A stretch of DNA of 64,000 nt. Source: a virus. Shown here piece by piece: positions 50,396 through 64,000 of this stretch. The stretch lies in the IMG/VR virus record IMGVR_UViG_3300028840_005911, positions 32,001-96,000 of that record; one strand, given 5' to 3'. The first letter of the stretch is position 1. Each line of letters starts with the position of its first letter. Below the pieces are notes generated by a model. The model did not search any database. It was not told the DNA's origin and worked only from the letters and a program-made list of their open reading frames with translations. Made by a program: the position numbers and the translations under genes.

Positions 50396-50474
50396 GGTGG
50401 ATAGCTTGAGAGTTTGTTGGTGGGTCGATTGGACTAGCGAACGGTTAGATGCTGGTTCGCTGGGAAGAGAGCCT
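50396..50474 (+). repeat. G-NNN period-4 tract (18/20 units, one 3-nt unit)
   Basis: ggtg gata gctt gaga gttt gttg gtgg gtc gatt ggac tagc gaac ggtt agat gctg gttc gctg ggaa gaga gcct. Confidence 0.75.
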
Positions 50475-51435: not shown

Positions 51436-52692
51436 ATGAACATCGATCTCAACATGTTCGAGAAGGACGAGAAGACGGGACTCTACATCATCGAGGACCA
51501 GGTAGTCCTCGGTATCATCCTGGTCTACGTCATCCAGAAGCTCGGACAGTGCAACGACAACCTGCTGCGGGATACCCTCCGTGACAAACTGGGCATCTAC
51601 GTACGCAAGTGGAAGACCGTCTTCCGCAACGCCCTCAACGCTCTCAAGAAGCTGGACCTCATCGCCATCAACCAGCTCCCCGGAGAGGGGGACGTACAGG
51701 AAGAGCACTACTCCCTGAAGAACGTGGAGTTCGCCTCCCCGCCGCATCTGGCCCACTTCAAGGACGTTCTTCCCAAACTGCTTGCAGACGGGACGTCCGC
51801 AGCTATCAAGGTGGCTTTCGACTCCGGGGAAGAAGCGGAGCCAGGGGAGACCACCAAGCCCAAGAGGGGAGCAAACATCAAAGAGAGCCACGTCTACTCA
51901 GTCCGGTTCGAGAGTGAGGAGAAGTTCCTTGCTGGTAGGTCAATCTGTCCGACCATGAGGGACGGCCTGGAGAAATCTCCGTACCAACCGAACATCGATG
52001 GCTATATCAAGCAGGAAGAAGAAGAGCCCAGGAAGACCAAGAAAAAGAAGGCGGCCGATAGGGCAGACGCTAAGATCGACCGCTTCTTCGAGCGAGCCAC
52101 TGACGGCGGGATCCTGATCCACGGTGGTATCACCAAGGGCATGTTCTGCTCTGCCATACCGCGCTTGTACGGCCTCGCCCCGGCAACCGCGAGGGACAAC
52201 GGCGGGTACCCGTCGATCATCGTCTACCCGAACAATCACGGTATCCAACTGACCACACTTCCGGTCCAGGCCTCCAACGGCAAGTCAGCCGCACCGCAAA
52301 CCTACGAGACAATCATGCCTGGAGAGGAGATCCTGCTCAGGTTCTGGGCCCCGACCAAAGGGTTCCTGGACGCGGACATCATCGTTGAGTATCTCGAGTT
52401 CATCGGCCTCTTCCCAAAACGCACCCTTTCGCCCGGTCGTGGCACCGAGACTGGGAAGATGAGGATGACTCACTTCGTTGACCATGGCCTTGTTCCGGAG
52501 ATATTCGAGAAGCGCAAGAAGAACAGGAAGAAGCTTCCCATAGATGCATACCTCGACTGGGAGTTCGAAAAGGAGACCGGGGTAACGCTCCAAAAAGTCG
52601 GCGGTGCCCCGAAGACTAAGAAGGCCCGCATGCGGGTCGACGGCAACAAGATGCTCCTCTTCAAGACGAAGGGAGACCAGGCTCAGGCGTAG
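51436..52692 (+). CDS. Winged-helix + stand-alone RAMP/Cas7-like protein (Vipr-like)
   Basis: VRFESEEKFLAG; FFERATDGGILIHGGITKGMFCSA; IIVYP...LPVQASNG...YETIMPGEEI; EYLEF...PGRGTETGKM match the motif order of phage solo Cas7-like proteins as I recall them. Confidence 0.65.
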   Translation: MNIDLNMFEKDEKTGLYIIEDQVVLGIILVYVIQKLGQCNDNLLRDTLRDKLGIYVRKWKTVFRNALNALKKLDLIAINQLPGEGDVQEEHYSLKNVEFASPPHLAHFKDVLPKLLADGTSAAIKVAFDSGEEAEPGETTKPKRGANIKESHVYSVRFESEEKFLAGRSICPTMRDGLEKSPYQPNIDGYIKQEEEEPRKTKKKKAADRADAKIDRFFERATDGGILIHGGITKGMFCSAIPRLYGLAPATARDNGGYPSIIVYPNNHGIQLTTLPVQASNGKSAAPQTYETIMPGEEILLRFWAPTKGFLDADIIVEYLEFIGLFPKRTLSPGRGTETGKMRMTHFVDHGLVPEIFEKRKKNRKKLPIDAYLDWEFEKETGVTLQKVGGAPKTKKARMRVDGNKMLLFKTKGDQAQA

Positions 52693-55111: not shown

Positions 55112-55244
55112 GGATCTTCTGGCATGAACCACAATCACCGTGGTCGCAGGTTCAAGTCCTGCCATCCCCTCCAACCTATGGGGATGTAGCTCAGTGGTAA
55201 GAGCGACGGGTCGTTGTTGTAACGGTTCTTGGGTAGATGATTCC
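55112..55244 (+). ncRNA. Circularly permuted tRNA-like RNA (YrlA/Y-RNA-like)
   Basis: T arm GCAGG-TTCAAGT-CCTGC, then CATCCCC-TCCA-ACCTAT-GGGGATG, then D arm GCTC-AGTGGTAA-GAGC, closed by a long imperfect stem. Confidence 0.7.
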
Positions 55245-55776: not shown

Positions 55777-55930
55777 GAATACCCTAACGGAGCTCATGGA
55801 TGTTGTCGAGAAGGACAGCAAGAAGATCCTCACGATGGATACCATCAACGGGGTCCGCAAGCTCCGGACATATCTCGTCGGCGGACATTACACGCCGTTT
55901 CTTGGCATAAAAGATCGAACAGGCCAGTAG
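55730..55930 (+). CDS. Hypothetical protein
   Basis: GAGG RBS; stop lies inside tRNA 5' end. Confidence 0.55.
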   Translation: MSEKEAKKRELLNRAENTLTELMDVVEKDSKKILTMDTINGVRKLRTYLVGGHYTPFLGIKDRTGQ

Positions 55931-56001
55931 CTCAATTGGTAGAGCACCCGCAATCTGAAACATGCGGGAGGTTTGGGGTTCAAGTCCTTGCTGGCCTACC
56001 A
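55921..56001 (+). tRNA. Atypical tRNA, possibly Phe(GAA), with enlarged anticodon arm
   Basis: AGGCCAG/CTGGCCT acceptor, ACCA end, D arm, TTCAAGT loop; 22-nt anticodon arm; three G-U pairs in T stem. Confidence 0.7.
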
Positions 56002-57175: not shown

Positions 57176-57235
57176 GGATGTTAGGTGGAACTGCCGTGCG
57201 CATGTCCGGGAGTCCGTAGGAATGGGTAGGTGAGG
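57176..57235 (+). repeat. G-NNN period-4 tract (13/15)
   Basis: ggat gtta ggtg gaac tgcc gtgc gcat gtcc ggga gtcc gtag gaat gggt aggt gagg. Confidence 0.7.
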
Positions 57236-57236
57236 T

Positions 57237-57265
57237 AAGAAGGGGAGCCCTGTTCCTCTTCTTTT
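57237..57265 (+). terminator. Hairpin terminator
   Basis: AAGAAGGGGAGC-CCT-GTTCCTCTTCTTTT. Confidence 0.7.
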
Positions 57266-57271
57266 AGCCCA

Positions 57272-57302
57272 TGAATTCTAAGGTCTTCTTGCGGTATAAG
57301 GA
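57272..57302 (+). promoter_or_regulatory. Phage consensus promoter
   Basis: TGAATT-N15-GGTATAAGGA. Confidence 0.7.
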
Positions 57303-57338: not shown

Positions 57339-57683
57339 ATGAAATATCTTGAGAGAGCGGCGATAAGCCTGCAATCTGTTCTACACAAAGGGAGCACCGA
57401 TCTCGAGAAGATCGGCATCTTGCTGGCCAACATCCATACCATCATCGATCTGTGGATCCCCATCGGCCGGGCTGTTCAGATCATGGGTCGGGAGCGTTCG
57501 GCCCCGGTTCTGCGCTCGAGGGCCGAGAAGCTCATCAGGGATATCCGTAGAGAGGACGAGGATGCCGTCAGAGAGGATATCTCGGTCATAGAGGACATAG
57601 TATACCAGTACACCGGAAAACGTCCCGTAGGGGGCAAGGAGTACGCTAGCAGGGAGACTATCCAGTTTGTCGACGCCCCCTGA
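57339..57683 (+). CDS. Hypothetical protein
   Basis: AGGAGG RBS. Confidence 0.7.
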   Translation: MKYLERAAISLQSVLHKGSTDLEKIGILLANIHTIIDLWIPIGRAVQIMGRERSAPVLRSRAEKLIRDIRREDEDAVREDISVIEDIVYQYTGKRPVGGKEYASRETIQFVDAP

Positions 57684-57813
57684 GTCTGATACACTGGCCT
57701 CGGCCCTGCCGGATAGTTCATCCATGTGAGCTCCTACCAAGTCCAGCAGGGTCATTTATTTTGGAGAAGGAAATGGACAGACCAACATACAGGAGCAGAA
57801 GAAGAGTGGACTG

Positions 57814-58032
57814 GTGGCTATCACCACCGGTCTGTTCATCGACAGGGCATCTTCACGAAAACAGATAGAGGAGGCATGGCCCAGCCTCTGCAAGGATCTC
57901 GGGCTGGTTGATGACAAAACCGGGACGAACACGTACACCATTCAGGGGTTCGATCTCTACAAGTGGGTTGAGGAGAAGCACCAAGAGAAGTTCAACTCTG
58001 AGCCGGACCCTGTACCAAAACCCCATTCTTGA
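57814..58032 (+). CDS. Hypothetical protein (start uncertain)
   Basis: GTG start; strong-RBS ATG at 57773 is out of frame. Confidence 0.45.
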   Translation: MAITTGLFIDRASSRKQIEEAWPSLCKDLGLVDDKTGTNTYTIQGFDLYKWVEEKHQEKFNSEPDPVPKPHS

Positions 58033-58160
58033 CATGCGCGATCACCTCTTTGCAGTGATCACAGACAATGCACACATATCCGTCAATGACCTGAACGGAG
58101 AGGATATGGAACATGTGTTTCTCGAGATCCATTTCTAGATTGTAGCACAGGAGCAAAGTT

Positions 58161-58409
58161 ATGGGAGATTTGTCAGACGACCTCCGCGAGATGGGTATAG
58201 CCGAGGAAGGTATACCCCAGACGGAGATGATCTGTGAAATATTCGCACCGGTGATTGACGAGCTCATCGAACATCGCCTCGACGCGGCTACTACTGAAAA
58301 AGAGAAGAGGAATGCTCCCTACGATGTGAGGGACTACCTGTTCCGTCTGATAACCGCGATAGCCACTCAGAAAAAATACATCAGGAGGGCAAACGAATGG
58401 AAAGAGTAA
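58161..58409 (+). CDS. Hypothetical protein
   Basis: AGGAG RBS. Confidence 0.65.
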   Translation: MGDLSDDLREMGIAEEGIPQTEMICEIFAPVIDELIEHRLDAATTEKEKRNAPYDVRDYLFRLITAIATQKKYIRRANEWKE

Positions 58410-58639
58410 GCGCGTGGGTCATCGTCTGCGGGACTGGCGCCTTATACCCTATAGGGTCAGGTGGAGGGAAGGCCGCCTACATCCACAAAGAGGTCGCCGA
58501 GGATGTAATGATGGCCATCGCTGATCACGATAAGGCCTACGTCAAAGGTCGCGGAGGTCTTCACCTCGAAGAAATAACTGCAGAGGCCGGCCTGTTCAAG
58601 CAGCTAGGCCTCAATCTTGTCACGCAGGAGAAAGAGTAA
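58397..58639 (+). CDS. Hypothetical protein
   Basis: GGAGG RBS. Confidence 0.6.
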   Translation: MERVSAWVIVCGTGALYPIGSGGGKAAYIHKEVAEDVMMAIADHDKAYVKGRGGLHLEEITAEAGLFKQLGLNLVTQEKE

Positions 58640-58881
58640 TGGCCTACGTAGTCGGACTTCTCACAGATGAGGAGATGGAGATTCTCGAAGAGCGCGGATG
58701 GGATTTCGAGGAACCTCCCGCAGAGCTCAAGCTGGGGAGGTGTCCCCCGGGAAAGGTCCAGAAGATGGTCTGGGTCGACAGTGATATGTTCGAGATCATC
58801 GGCCCCTGGGAAGACAGGTCGTTCAGTGACGGTCCTCCCTACGATGCCGCAACTGCTACGGGGATGTACGACCGGTACTAA
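58639..58881 (+). CDS. Hypothetical acidic protein
   Basis: TAATG overlap. Confidence 0.6.
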   Translation: MAYVVGLLTDEEMEILEERGWDFEEPPAELKLGRCPPGKVQKMVWVDSDMFEIIGPWEDRSFSDGPPYDAATATGMYDRY

Positions 58882-58900
58882 ACACGGCCGGTTGAATGGC

Positions 58901-59040
58901 GATAGATTGAATGAGTTACTGATAGTTTGCGAGGGAGTTGGGAAGGACGGAGTCTGGAAAGCAGTGAGGAAAGGGCGGAAGGTTGTTCGATCTCACGAGG
59001 GATAGGCAGCCAGTGGGCCTGTGGGGAGGAGCGAACGGAA
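58901..59040 (+). repeat. G-NNN period-4 tract (31/35)
   Basis: gata gatt gaat gagt tact gata gttt gcga ggga gttg ggaa ggac ... gagc gaac ggaa. Confidence 0.85.
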
Positions 59041-59066
59041 AAGAGACTGATCTGGTCTCTTTTCTT
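59039..59066 (+). terminator. Hairpin terminator
   Basis: AAAAGAGAC-TGATCTG-GTCTCTTTT. Confidence 0.75.
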
Positions 59067-59074
59067 ACTTATGA

Positions 59075-59104
59075 AAAAATAACGCGATCCTTTGGGTATA
59101 AGAA
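59075..59104 (+). promoter_or_regulatory. Phage consensus promoter
   Basis: AAAAAT-N14-GGTATAAGAA. Confidence 0.8.
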
Positions 59105-61261: not shown

Positions 61262-61611
61262 GCAAAGAGCTATACAACCAGCTATTGAAAATGATGTTGT
61301 TGGCCGATGTCCGGAACCCCATGTCTGCGACAGATCAGGTGGACTGGATCATAGAGATACTGGACGCGCTCTTGAACAGAACCAATGTGCAGTATATGGA
61401 TTTGGAAGACGGCCTTACGTTCTTTGAAGACAGGTCAACATACCATTTGACAACAATGTGCATCAACGAGGTGTACAGAGTGTACGTCTTGGAGGAGTTT
61501 GGTGGCGAGTTCGCCCTTATCACACCCAAACTCCTTCCGGACCATATCAAAGAAAAGATCCTGGATGTTCTGAAGGACTTCATTTCGAAGTGCGCCTCAG
61601 AAGGGACTTGA
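61258..61611 (+). CDS. Hypothetical protein
   Basis: ATGA overlap, AGGAG RBS. Confidence 0.6.
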   Translation: MSKELYNQLLKMMLLADVRNPMSATDQVDWIIEILDALLNRTNVQYMDLEDGLTFFEDRSTYHLTTMCINEVYRVYVLEEFGGEFALITPKLLPDHIKEKILDVLKDFISKCASEGT

Positions 61612-61701
61612 GTGACGGTTCGTACGGTCGGCTGTATGGTCGGGAGCGCGTCTGGATAGTGTGGGGTTTGTGGGACGGCCCGCAGGGATGTCGGAACGGT
61701 G
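61610..61701 (+). repeat. G-NNN period-4 tract (21/23)
   Basis: gagt gacg gttc gtac ggtc ggct gtat ggtc ggga gcgc gtct ggat agtg tggg gttt gtgg gacg gccc gcag ggat gtcg gaac ggtg. Confidence 0.85.
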
Positions 61702-61779: not shown

Positions 61780-62117
61780 GTGAGGAAAAGGGACGCTTTT
61801 TCCTTGTGTCGAGAAGGTCACCGGTAGGCGCCCACCGACACCTGAATATCCGCTACCGGGTGAAACTTGAGAAGTTAGAGTGCGCATTCTCAAGTTTCAT
61901 GGAATGGAGACGTGTTCGTGACGTCCCTGCACTCATGGTTTGGGAAACCAGGGGATGGTGATGGGATTAGTCCCCGGCTGGTAACAGCGCAGCTGTCGGG
62001 AAGGCGCCGCCAGGGATGGCACCCTGGCCGTTCGGGAGCTAGATCAGTTTTGGGCTATGAAGCAGCTGCCCCGAATCTGATCCGGTACCAAGAAGAGGGT
62101 ATCCCGCCTCTCTTCTT
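61780..62117 (+). ncRNA. Candidate structured ncRNA (about 340 nt)
   Basis: Promoter-to-terminator unit with several hairpins including 13-bp TGAAACTTGAGAA/TTCTCAAGTTTCA; no RBS-supported ORF. Confidence 0.55.
62090..62117 (+). terminator. Hairpin terminator
   Basis: AAGAAGAGGGT-ATCCC-GCCTCTCTTCTT. Confidence 0.65.
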
Positions 62118-62127
62118 ACCTATTTAG

Positions 62128-62158
62128 TAAAATCCAACACCTCTGTTGGGTATAAGAA
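62128..62158 (+). promoter_or_regulatory. Consensus promoter with palindromic operator in spacer
   Basis: TAAAAT-N15-GGTATAAGAA; CCAACAC-CT-CTGTTGG at 62134-62149. Confidence 0.8.
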
Positions 62159-62540: not shown

Positions 62541-62541
62541 T

Positions 62542-62557
62542 CCAACAGGTCTGTTGG
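62542..62557. promoter_or_regulatory. Palindrome CCAACAG-GT-CTGTTGG
   Basis: Perfect 7-bp arms; one of four copies. Confidence 0.6.
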
Positions 62558-62562
62558 ACACT

Positions 62563-62678
62563 GATTGGCTGGGAGTACGAGGGGTATATGGGATGGTAGT
62601 GAGATCTGACGTGTGAGCGGATGTCGTCTGGCTCGTACGGAGGGTTGGTCGGGAACGCGGACGTGGGCGAGAATGAAT
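62563..62678 (+). repeat. G-NNN period-4 tract (25/29)
   Basis: gatt ggct ggga gtac gagg ggta tatg ggat ggta gtga gatc ... gtgg gcga gaat gaat. Confidence 0.85.
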
Positions 62679-62724: not shown

Positions 62725-62745
62725 ACATGTATACTATATATAAGT

Positions 62746-62791
62746 CCAACAGGGCTGTTGTAAATTACTTACCGCGATTCTGGTATAAGAG
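62746..62791 (+). promoter_or_regulatory. Operator CCAACAG-GG-CTGTTGT abutting consensus promoter
   Basis: Palindrome 62746-62761; TAAATT-N15-GGTATAAGAG. Confidence 0.75.
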
Positions 62792-62912
62792 ATCTATGGG
62801 AGCGTGTTTCGCTCCTTCGCATTGAGCTGGTCCTGGAGTAGGTAACGGGTAACCGTGTGGCGCGCGACATGTCTACTCCAGGACCGCAAGACATTATCCC
62901 GGCCTTCGGCCG

Positions 62913-63160
62913 GTTTGATTGTGTTGTGGGTGGAATGTCGGGAGTATCGGACGCTTGAACGAATGTGGGAGAGTAAATCAGACAGGGGAGCAGGTTGATC
63001 GAAGAGAGGCAAGGGCGGTCGCCGGTATGAGTGTTCGCGGGTCTGGTAGCGAGAGGGTACGTTTGTCCGTGGTGCGGAATCATGGGGCGTTTGTCAAAAG
63101 GAAGGTACGAGCGTGAGTGGGAACATGCGTCTGCACGGTGGCCCGAGCGAAAGCTCGAGA
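62913..63160 (+). repeat. G-NNN period-4 tract (53/62, unbroken phase)
   Basis: gttt gatt gtgt tgtg ggtg gaat gtcg ggag ... gccc gagc gaaa gctc gaga. Confidence 0.9.
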
Positions 63161-63190: not shown

Positions 63191-63221
63191 TAAAATACAA
63201 CAGCACTGTTGGGTATAAGTA
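63191..63221 (+). promoter_or_regulatory. Consensus promoter with palindromic operator in spacer
   Basis: TAAAAT-N15-GGTATAAGTA; ACAACAG-CA-CTGTTGG at 63197-63212. Confidence 0.8.
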
Positions 63222-63957: not shown

Positions 63958-64000
63958 GGGCTGAACAACGCGGAGCTGGCCGCTGAATCCAGCAATGATT

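What the first reader, a model, noticed from the sequence alone, without database searches (positions are those of the whole stretch)
58901..59040. G-NNN tract in the 3' UTR of a small-gene operon; all four exceptions start with T
Seen: 31/35 units start with G and the exceptions are tact, tctg, tgag, tcac. Three more units (58886-58897) precede it after one 3-nt unit. It begins right after the stop at 58881 and runs into the terminator. Inference: U may be tolerated in the G pocket or may mark guide boundaries.
Basis: partly seen in the sequence, partly recalled or inferred. Interest (0 to 1): 0.72.

Follow-up and report, generated by a model that had tools for sequence, protein, structure and literature searches.

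The report
Four-base-step guide-like phage RNA tail
The tail of an early phage transcript has a G at every fourth base for 35-39 steps, most likely as the RNA partner of the phage's lone CRISPR-type (Cas7-like) protein. The four T-start steps look like ordinary tolerated slack at the G position, not punctuation.

Summary
In detail: window 58901-59040 is 35 four-base units, 31 starting with G and 4 with T. Three more in-phase units and one 3-nt unit lie upstream.

It is one of seven same-strand (GNNN)n tracts in a 192-kb uncultured phage. That phage encodes a winged-helix + Cas7-like (RAMP) protein at 51436-52692.

I checked the link independently:
- The protein's model matches Cas7/Csm3.
- Long period-4 G tracts lie directly beside homologous genes, on the same strand, in four other phage lineages.
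- In one strain pair the tract is the mutational hot spot, with the G kept and the next two bases scrambled.

The closest known system is VIPR (2026 preprints), but every described VIPR RNA has a five-base step, so this is a new variant.

The T-only exceptions are local. Over 13 tracts the exceptions are A 41, T 43, C 19, so C is avoided and T mildly enriched. The first G of the SUSP1 VIPR RNAs shows the same spectrum (A 7, T 6, C 0). Tolerance is supported; guide boundaries are not.

No target and no RNA data were found.

The scan had already noted this system on this genome and on two other genomes.

The parts
57293..57300 (+). GGTATAAG promoter-like motif (extended -10 type) at the head of the small-gene operon
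   Evidence: The same motif precedes 11 + strand transcription units between 48.4 and 63.2 kb. The generic sigma-70 scan does not call it, so this is an inference.
57339..58881 (+). Operon of small ORFs: 114 aa, an uncertain 72/76-aa ORF, then 82, 80 and 80 aa with overlapping stop and start codons
   Evidence: ORF list. No PHROG family matched any of these ORFs, and the three ORFs scanned against Pfam (82, 80, 80 aa) had no match.
58886..58900 (+). Three in-phase GNNN units (GGCC GGTT GAAT) plus one 3-nt unit (GGC), that is a one-base phase slip before the main tract
58901..59040 (+). Main (GNNN)35 tract: 31 G-start and 4 T-start units. No stable fold of its own.
   Evidence: Fold z-score -0.9 against shuffles. 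No Rfam match.
58917..58920 (+). T-start unit TACT (unit 5)
58953..58956 (+). T-start unit TCTG (unit 14)
58965..58968 (+). T-start unit TGAG (unit 17)
58993..58996 (+). T-start unit TCAC (unit 24)
59037..59065 (+). 12-bp purine-arm/pyrimidine-arm hairpin (terminator-like) that ends the transcript and overlaps the last unit
   Evidence: Predicted in both the MFE and the centroid fold. The same hairpin type ends every early unit, including units without a tract. The generic terminator scan does not call it.
59095..59102 (+). GGTATAAG promoter-like motif of the next operon
51436..52692 (+). Candidate protein partner: 418 aa, N-terminal winged helix plus C-terminal Cas7-like RAMP domain with a glycine-rich loop motif (LSPxRG)
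   Evidence: No Pfam or PDB sequence match. 88 representative homologues. AF2 model with pLDDT 84. Foldseek best matches are Csm3/Cas7 of type III and VII and Cas7-11, E about 1e-6. BFVD matches are phage RAMP proteins and wHTH/PadR proteins. Conserved motif shown.
50396..50474 (+). Sister tract, 20 units, 18 G
57176..57250 (+). Sister tract, 19 units, 17 G
61610..61701 (+). Sister tract, 23 units, 21 G
62563..62678 (+). Sister tract, 29 units, 25 G
62909..63160 (+). Sister tract, 63 units, 54 G, in a transcription unit of its own with no ORF
63997..64000 (+). Start of a sister tract that runs beyond the window to 64190: 49 units, 46 G, one 2-nt slip

Best explanation
The tract is the 3' part of an early phage transcript. 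I read it as the RNA partner of the phage's winged-helix-RAMP (Cas7-like) protein at 51436-52692.

The mechanism is inferred by analogy with VIPR and Cas7 filaments:
- One RAMP protomer binds each 4-nt unit.
- The phased G is held by the protein as an anchor.
- The following bases are left exposed to read a nucleic-acid target. Positions 2-3 are the main candidates; position 4 is semi-constrained in relatives.
- The fused winged helix may help DNA engagement.

The four U-start units are sites of weaker anchoring that the filament tolerates. U and A are accepted at the anchor and C is disfavoured. They are not punctuation.

Shown here: the periodicity, the strand and transcript context, the RAMP fold, the gene-tract co-occurrence, the hypervariability of the N positions in one strain pair, and the exception spectrum.

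Inferred only: binding, the filament, the G pocket, guide function and any target.
For: Periodicity and strand.
- The periodicity is far beyond chance, and all seven tracts lie on the + strand within window 50.4-64.2 kb.

Transcript context.
- The tract lies between a stop codon and the unit-ending hairpin. One sister tract has its own promoter-like motif and no ORF.
- The tract folds no better than shuffles (z = -0.9). That is compatible with, but not evidence for, a single-stranded, protein-bound RNA.

The protein.
- The 418-aa protein has a Cas7/Csm3-like fold: Foldseek E about 1e-6, TM-score by target length 0.55-0.60. It also matches phage RAMP proteins.
- It carries a conserved glycine-rich loop motif.

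Co-occurrence.
- Homologues at 29-40% identity in metagenome contigs have long period-4 G tracts directly beside the gene, on the gene strand, in four further lineages: the L045 group with 115 units, L049 with 92 + 60, L052 with 46 + 143, and L053 with 14 + 36.
- Period-5 and period-7 controls give nothing above score 10, and the opposite strand gives no period-4 tract above score 12.

Variability.
- Between L045 and L048, strains about 98% identical, 55 of 65 variable columns in 8.7 kb (four strains aligned) fall in the tract.
- Mismatches by unit position are 1/16, 12/16, 10/16 and 4/15 (Fisher p = 3e-5).

Exception spectrum.
- It is A 41, C 19, T 43 against an expected 35/39/29.
- It parallels the first anchor G of the SUSP1 vrRNAs: A 7, T 6, C 0.

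Literature.
- The VIPR papers show a RAMP filament with one protomer per repeat and anchored G bases. They describe vrRNA repeats as frequently degenerate internally (10.64898/2026.04.26.720920 and .720927).
Against: - There is no direct evidence of transcription, processing or binding. No RNA run holds this phage.
- In this phage the tracts are dispersed 1-13 kb from the RAMP gene instead of adjoining it.
- This tract has no relatives, so its own N positions cannot be shown to be variable.
- Four homologue lineages with several kb of flank show no strong tract: L042, L043/L044 (only a 17-unit, score-11 tract) and L054, plus the 172-kb phage G001 scanned whole. L051 also shows none, but holds only about 0.8 kb downstream of its gene.
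- No target was found under any rule tried.
- The family has no significant sequence similarity to the SUSP1 Vipr protein (hhalign probability 0.4%).
- The hypervariability rests on one strain pair. Aligning periodic G bases inflates the apparent conservation of position 1.
- The A/T-rich, C-poor exception spectrum could partly reflect mutation bias: G>A and G>T are commonly more frequent than G>C (background knowledge, not tested here).
Confidence: 0.55

Rival explanations
1. The RAMP protein, or another phage RNA-binding protein, coats the GNNN tail in cis. This would control the fate of the early mRNA, for example by protecting it from 3' exonucleases or by setting its timing or location. 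The tract is then a scaffold and not a guide, and the N positions carry no information.
For: Five of the seven tracts are 3' UTRs of early operons that end at the common hairpin. Tract lengths vary from 19 to 63 units, unlike the 9-16 repeats of VIPR RNAs. No target was found.
Against: In the L045/L048 strain pair, substitutions concentrate on unit positions 2-3 while the rest of 8.7 kb is nearly invariant. A pure scaffold would not be expected to show this. One tract is a dedicated non-coding transcript. In relatives the tracts follow the RAMP gene itself and not assorted mRNAs.
Confidence: 0.17
2. The T-start units, and phase slips, are punctuation. They mark where a long tract is cut into separate guides or where separate filaments begin.
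For: In L045/L048 the junction between the hypervariable and the conserved module coincides with an A-start unit in one strain and a 3-nt slip in the other. Irregularities lie 4-5 units apart more often than an algorithm-matched simulation predicts: 35 observed against about 20 expected, p = 0.002 uncorrected and chosen after seeing the data.
Against: In this tract the T units are 9, 3 and 7 units apart, which would give guides as short as 3 units. Nothing is conserved around the T units. Exceptions elsewhere are A as often as T. In the SUSP1 vrRNA regions, A- or U-start units lie inside the phased repeat stretches. The VIPR authors describe internal degeneracy as frequent.
Confidence: 0.1
3. 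The tract acts as DNA. It would be a phased array of contacts for the winged-helix domain or another DNA-binding protein, or a structural signal for replication or packaging.
For: The partner protein carries a winged-helix domain. The tracts cluster in one 14-kb region.
Against: All tracts lie on the coding strand, between a stop codon or a promoter-like motif and the unit-ending hairpin. In relatives they are always on the gene strand. A 4-bp period does not match the roughly 10.5-bp repeat of the double helix (inference from B-DNA geometry).
Confidence: 0.05
4. There is no dedicated function. The tract would be a by-product of composition or mutation in non-coding DNA.
For: None beyond the lack of experimental data.
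Against: P is about 4e-8 after correction for the whole genome. The same feature recurs beside homologous genes in unrelated GC-rich phages. Tandem Repeats Finder finds no repeat that could have decayed into it.
Confidence: 0.03

Closest known systems
VIPR systems (Vipr RAMP protein + vrRNA; types I-VII; type II of Escherichia phage SUSP1). bioRxiv 10.64898/2026.04.26.720920 and 10.64898/2026.04.26.720927
   Same: - The system is phage-encoded, with a lone RAMP-fold protein and no other cas genes.
- The RNA is a phased repeat in which only the anchor base(s) are conserved and the bases between them vary.
- The tract lies on the gene strand, next to the gene in relatives.
- The repeats are degenerate internally, with A or U but not C at the first anchor G.
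- A DNA-binding winged-helix module is associated. It is a separate vap gene in VIPR types II, VI and VII, and is fused here.
- No self-target is found.
   Different: - The step is 4 nt with one conserved G. Every described vrRNA is pentanucleotide (GGY/NN, NNNGG, YNNNG, NNNNG).
- Tracts reach 63 units here and 143 in relatives, against 9-16 repeats.
- In this phage the tracts are dispersed as 3' UTRs of unrelated early operons.
- The 3' end is the phage's general hairpin and not a dedicated pseudoknot tail.
- The protein is twice as long (418 against 195 aa) and has no significant sequence similarity to SUSP1 Vipr. The loop residues that hold G1 and G2 in SUSP1 (D177, W178) appear not to be conserved: a short, non-significant local alignment places the family's SPAR against SUSP1's GDWR.
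- The pairing rule and the targets are unknown.
Cas7 backbone filaments of class 1 CRISPR effectors (Csm3/Cmr4, type VII Cas7, Cas7-11)
   Same: These are the best structural matches of the C-terminal domain. They are filaments with one protomer per fixed number of RNA bases and one flipped base per protomer.
   Different: The step is 6 nt and the flipped base has no sequence preference. The RNA comes from a CRISPR array with repeats and spacers, and the effector works with other Cas proteins. None of this is present here.
TRAP binding sites in Bacillus trp leader RNAs: (G/U)AG triplets spaced by 2-3 nt (from my own knowledge, not checked in a paper here)
   Same: A phased, otherwise non-repetitive RNA is read by an oligomeric protein, and U is accepted in place of G at the first position.
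   Different: There the period is about 5 with a conserved AG, there are 9-11 repeats, and the protein is a ring of a different fold with a role in attenuation. Here only one base is conserved, the period is strictly 4, and the associated protein is a RAMP.

Membership tests
VIPR | Lone RAMP-fold protein (RRM core, glycine-rich loop, thumb) encoded by a phage with no other cas genes | tested here: met
   AF2 model with pLDDT 84. Foldseek against PDB gives Csm3/Cas7 at E about 1e-6, and against BFVD gives phage RAMP proteins. A conserved glycine-rich motif is present. The genome is a 192-kb virus record.
VIPR | The protein belongs to the Vipr clade by sequence or phylogeny | tested here: inconclusive
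   The family profile against SUSP1 Vipr gives hhalign probability 0.4%. BLASTP finds only a short loop similarity (RFGRF.V) at E = 7. The authors themselves needed structure searches to find the family. No Vipr structure is in the PDB copy, and no tree was built.
VIPR | vrRNA made of pentanucleotide repeats (GGY/NN, or NNNGG, YNNNG, NNNNG) | tested here: not met
   The period is strictly 4 with one conserved G. No period-5 G tract lies beside any family member.
VIPR | Repeat RNA encoded beside the RAMP gene on the same strand | tested here: met
   It is directly adjacent in L045-L048, L049, L052 and L053. In this phage it is on the same strand but 1-13 kb away.
VIPR | Anchor bases conserved and the bases between them hypervariable among relatives | tested here: inconclusive
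   Met in one strain pair of a related phage. It cannot be tested for this tract, because no relative of this phage was found and the two runs that hold it are identical.
VIPR | Conserved structured 3' tail (a pseudoknot in the SUSP1 clade) capping each vrRNA | tested here: inconclusive
   A 12-bp hairpin follows the tract. The same hairpin type also ends units without any tract, so it is not specific.
VIPR | Protein-RNA complex that binds DNA through a gapped code (1-nt skip) | not testable with these tools
   Only searches were possible. There is no self-match above shuffles for skips 0-3. There are no exact matches in IMG/VR or in the genome collection for the rules tried.
Class 1 CRISPR-Cas effector | CRISPR array of direct repeats and spacers, with further cas genes | tested here: not met
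   No tandem or direct repeat lies in or near the tracts. The ten proteins scanned against Pfam, including the RAMP protein and several of its neighbours, have no Cas family.
TRAP-type binding site | (G/U)AG triplets with 2-3 nt spacers | tested here: not met
   Positions 2-4 of the unit are near-unbiased and the period is 4.

The most novel reading that the evidence does not exclude
The wHTH-RAMP/(GNNN)n pairs would be a distinct RNA-guided system whose filament reads RNA in steps of four. One anchored G and two or three presented bases would place it geometrically between the 5-nt VIPR code and the 6-nt Cas7 code. In this phage the guides would be carried as the 3' tails of early mRNAs, so that early transcription itself arms the system against competitors or the host.
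Probability: 0.3. Interest if true: 0.8.

Novelty: new variant of a known kind. Interest (0 to 1): 0.6.

Why it matters
VIPR was described only in 2026 as a RAMP-based, non-contiguous RNA guide code that is said to predate CRISPR. All of its known RNAs step by five bases.

A sister family that steps by four, uses a single G anchor and has its DNA-binding domain fused to the RAMP would do three things:
- show that the step length of RAMP filaments is evolvable;
- give a second natural code to compare with the GGY/NN rule;
- offer a more compact programmable scaffold.

For this tract specifically, the exception spectrum (U and A accepted, C avoided, the same as at G1 of the SUSP1 vrRNAs) is a concrete and cheap prediction for binding assays.

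Tried and rejected
Relatives and variants
- No relative of this phage region or of the protein is in the cultured-phage collection. A single-protein scan of IMG/VR found nothing.
- The broad family alignments were too divergent for locus scans.
- No RNA holder is listed for this DNA. The two DNA runs that hold it carry one identical contig, so there are no variants in the tracts.
- The 172-kb phage G001 (homologue at 30% identity) shows no strong tract by my criteria. Its best score is 12, no better than its opposite strand.

Known RNA families
- Rfam finds nothing in the tracts or in relatives' tracts. The repeated structured heads in L049 are not recognised as hammerheads.

Target searches
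- All came back empty: the phage's own genome under skips 0-3, IMG/VR exact patterns for NNN with no skip, NNN with one skip and positions 2-3 with one skip on units 25-33/35, the variable module of L045, and the same two gapped patterns in the genome collection.
- These searches need perfect matches over 9-13 units, so they have low power and do not argue against guide function.

Rejected readings
- A decayed microsatellite.
- A TRAP-like site.
- A hidden ORF: I saw no support for one, since the only ORF inside the tract is a 51-aa TTG frame.
- A stable RNA structure of the tract itself.

Full report
**1.

Window 58901-59040 reads as 35 four-base units. Thirty-one start with G and four with T: TACT at 58917, TCTG at 58953, TGAG at 58965 and TCAC at 58993. 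None starts with A or C. The other three unit positions are near-unbiased.

The stop codon of the last ORF of a small-gene operon is at 58879-58881. Three more in-phase units (58886-58897) and a 3-nt unit (58898-58900) precede the tract. Its last unit overlaps a predicted 12-bp hairpin at 59037-59065.

The chance of at least 31 of 35 at the off-phase G frequency is 2.5e-14. That is about 4e-8 after allowing for every position, strand and base of the genome. Tandem Repeats Finder sees no repeat, so only one base is phased.

**2. Setting**

The window is part of a single 192,446-bp virus record. A slip-tolerant scan of the whole genome finds seven such tracts, all with G, all on the + strand, all within window 50.4-64.2 kb. 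The opposite strand gives nothing comparable.

Each tract ends at a hairpin with a purine-rich 5' arm and a pyrimidine-rich 3' arm, followed by a GGTATAAG promoter-like motif. The same hairpin type also ends early units that have no tract, so it is the phage's general unit end and not a tract-specific tail.

The generic scan calls neither terminator nor promoter here, so these labels are inferences. The tract folds no better than shuffles (z = -0.9) and matches no Rfam family.

**3. The protein partner**

Earlier notes of this scan pointed to the 418-aa ORF at 51436-52692 and to the VIPR preprints. I tested both.

The ORF has no Pfam, PHROG or PDB sequence match, but it has 88 representative homologues. 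With 50 of them, AlphaFold gives pLDDT 84.

The best PDB matches of the model are Csm3 and Cas7 of type III and VII effectors and Cas7-11 (E about 1e-6). In BFVD the best matches are phage RAMP proteins, and wHTH/PadR proteins for the N-terminus. A glycine-rich motif, RGLSPARGxRxG, is the most conserved stretch.

**4. Gene-tract co-occurrence**

Sixteen metagenome loci encode homologues at 29-40% identity. In four further lineages, long period-4 G tracts lie directly beside the gene on the gene strand:

| Lineage | Tract length (units) |
|---|---|
| L045-L048 | 115 |
| L049 | 92 and 60 |
| L052 | 46 and 143 |
| L053 | 14 and 36 |

Period-5 and period-7 controls give nothing above score 10, and the opposite strand gives no period-4 tract above score 12. 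Period-3 and period-6 hits reflect coding sequence.

Four lineages with several kb of flank show no strong tract: L042, L043/L044 (only a 17-unit, score-11 tract), L054 and the 172-kb phage G001. L051 also shows none, but only about 0.8 kb downstream of its gene is held.

**5. Variability**

L045-L048 are strains of one phage, 97.9-99.9% identical. Of 65 variable columns in 8.7 kb, 55 fall in the first part of the tract.

Between L045 and L048, mismatches by unit position are 1/16, 12/16, 10/16 and 4/15 (Fisher p = 3e-5). In the GC-rich relatives, position 4 is mostly G or C. The unit therefore looks like G-N-N-s: one anchor and two freely varying bases.

Two cautions apply. This is one strain pair, and aligning periodic G bases favours position 1.

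**6. The T question**

In this genome (six tracts) the non-G starts are T 14, A 8, C 2. Over 13 tracts of five lineages they are A 41, C 19, T 43, against 35.4, 39.0 and 28.6 expected from the other unit positions (p = 1e-4).

I read the VIPR locus of phage SUSP1 from KT454805.2 and phased its four vrRNA regions. The first G of GGY is G 41, A 7, T 6, C 0. The VIPR authors call internal degeneracy frequent.

So U and A are tolerated at the anchor and C is avoided. Four T of four is unremarkable once the family spectrum is used (p = 0.03-0.06). Mutation bias could contribute to the spectrum.

On boundaries:
- The T units here are 9, 3 and 7 units apart and share no context.
- Irregularities 4-5 units apart are over-represented (35 against about 20), but that bin was chosen after seeing the data.
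- In L045/L048 the junction between the variable and the conserved module coincides with an A-start unit or a slip. That is a single case.

**7. Comparison with what is known**

VIPR RNAs are pentanucleotide in all seven types, including the variants NNNGG, YNNNG and NNNNG. One Vipr protomer binds one repeat and holds the G bases.

The present system shares the logic but not the step. Its protein shows no significant sequence similarity to SUSP1 Vipr. I therefore file it as a new variant that works like VIPR, not as a demonstrated member.

**8. Gaps**

No target was found. No RNA data exist. There are no sequence variants of this tract.

Noticed in passing
window 62133-62150, 62541-62557, 62742-62757, 63197-63212 (and 64238-64254, just beyond the window): A palindrome CAACAG-N3-CTGTTG recurs at or just upstream of the -35 region of several GGTATAAG promoter-like motifs, and once right after a stop codon before a tract. 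It looks like an operator for a phage repressor.
   Followed up: no
window 55921-55998 and 55122-55235: A tRNA gene (Rfam 50.8 bits), and a tRNA-like or YrlA-like element below its gathering score (37 bits). Short pieces of both regions match contigs of other organisms in the laid runs.
   Followed up: no
window 61800-62130: A transcription unit with a promoter-like motif (61768) and the usual end hairpin (about 62100-62128), but with no convincing ORF and no GNNN phase. It is GC-rich with several hairpins, so it may be a different non-coding RNA.
   Followed up: no
L049:1590-1680, 2055-2135, 2465-2530: In a relative, each GNNN tract is preceded by a repeated structured element of about 80 nt: a GC stem enclosing a small hairpin, then a CTCCGGAG palindrome stem around GTCGAAAGC. 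It recalls the ribozyme-interspersed VIPR arrays, but Rfam reports no hammerhead.
   Followed up: partly
L051:1380-7510 (- strand): Another family member lies next to a block of about 28 tRNA genes, as expected of a large phage.
   Followed up: no
all tracts (13 tracts, 5 lineages): Non-G units and phase slips lie 4-5 units apart about 1.7 times more often than in an algorithm-matched simulation (35 against about 20). In this phage a gap of exactly 5 units occurs 5 times against about 1.8 expected. The bin was chosen after seeing the data and the excess is unexplained.
   Followed up: partly
window 58884-58897, 62892-62920, 63975-64005: Tracts A, E and G start with similar words: GGCCGGTTGAAT, GGCCGGTTTGATT and GGCCGCTGAATCC. 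In E the word is part of a CCGGCC-TTCG-GGCCGG hairpin. This may be a 5' start signal, but it rests on three cases.
   Followed up: no
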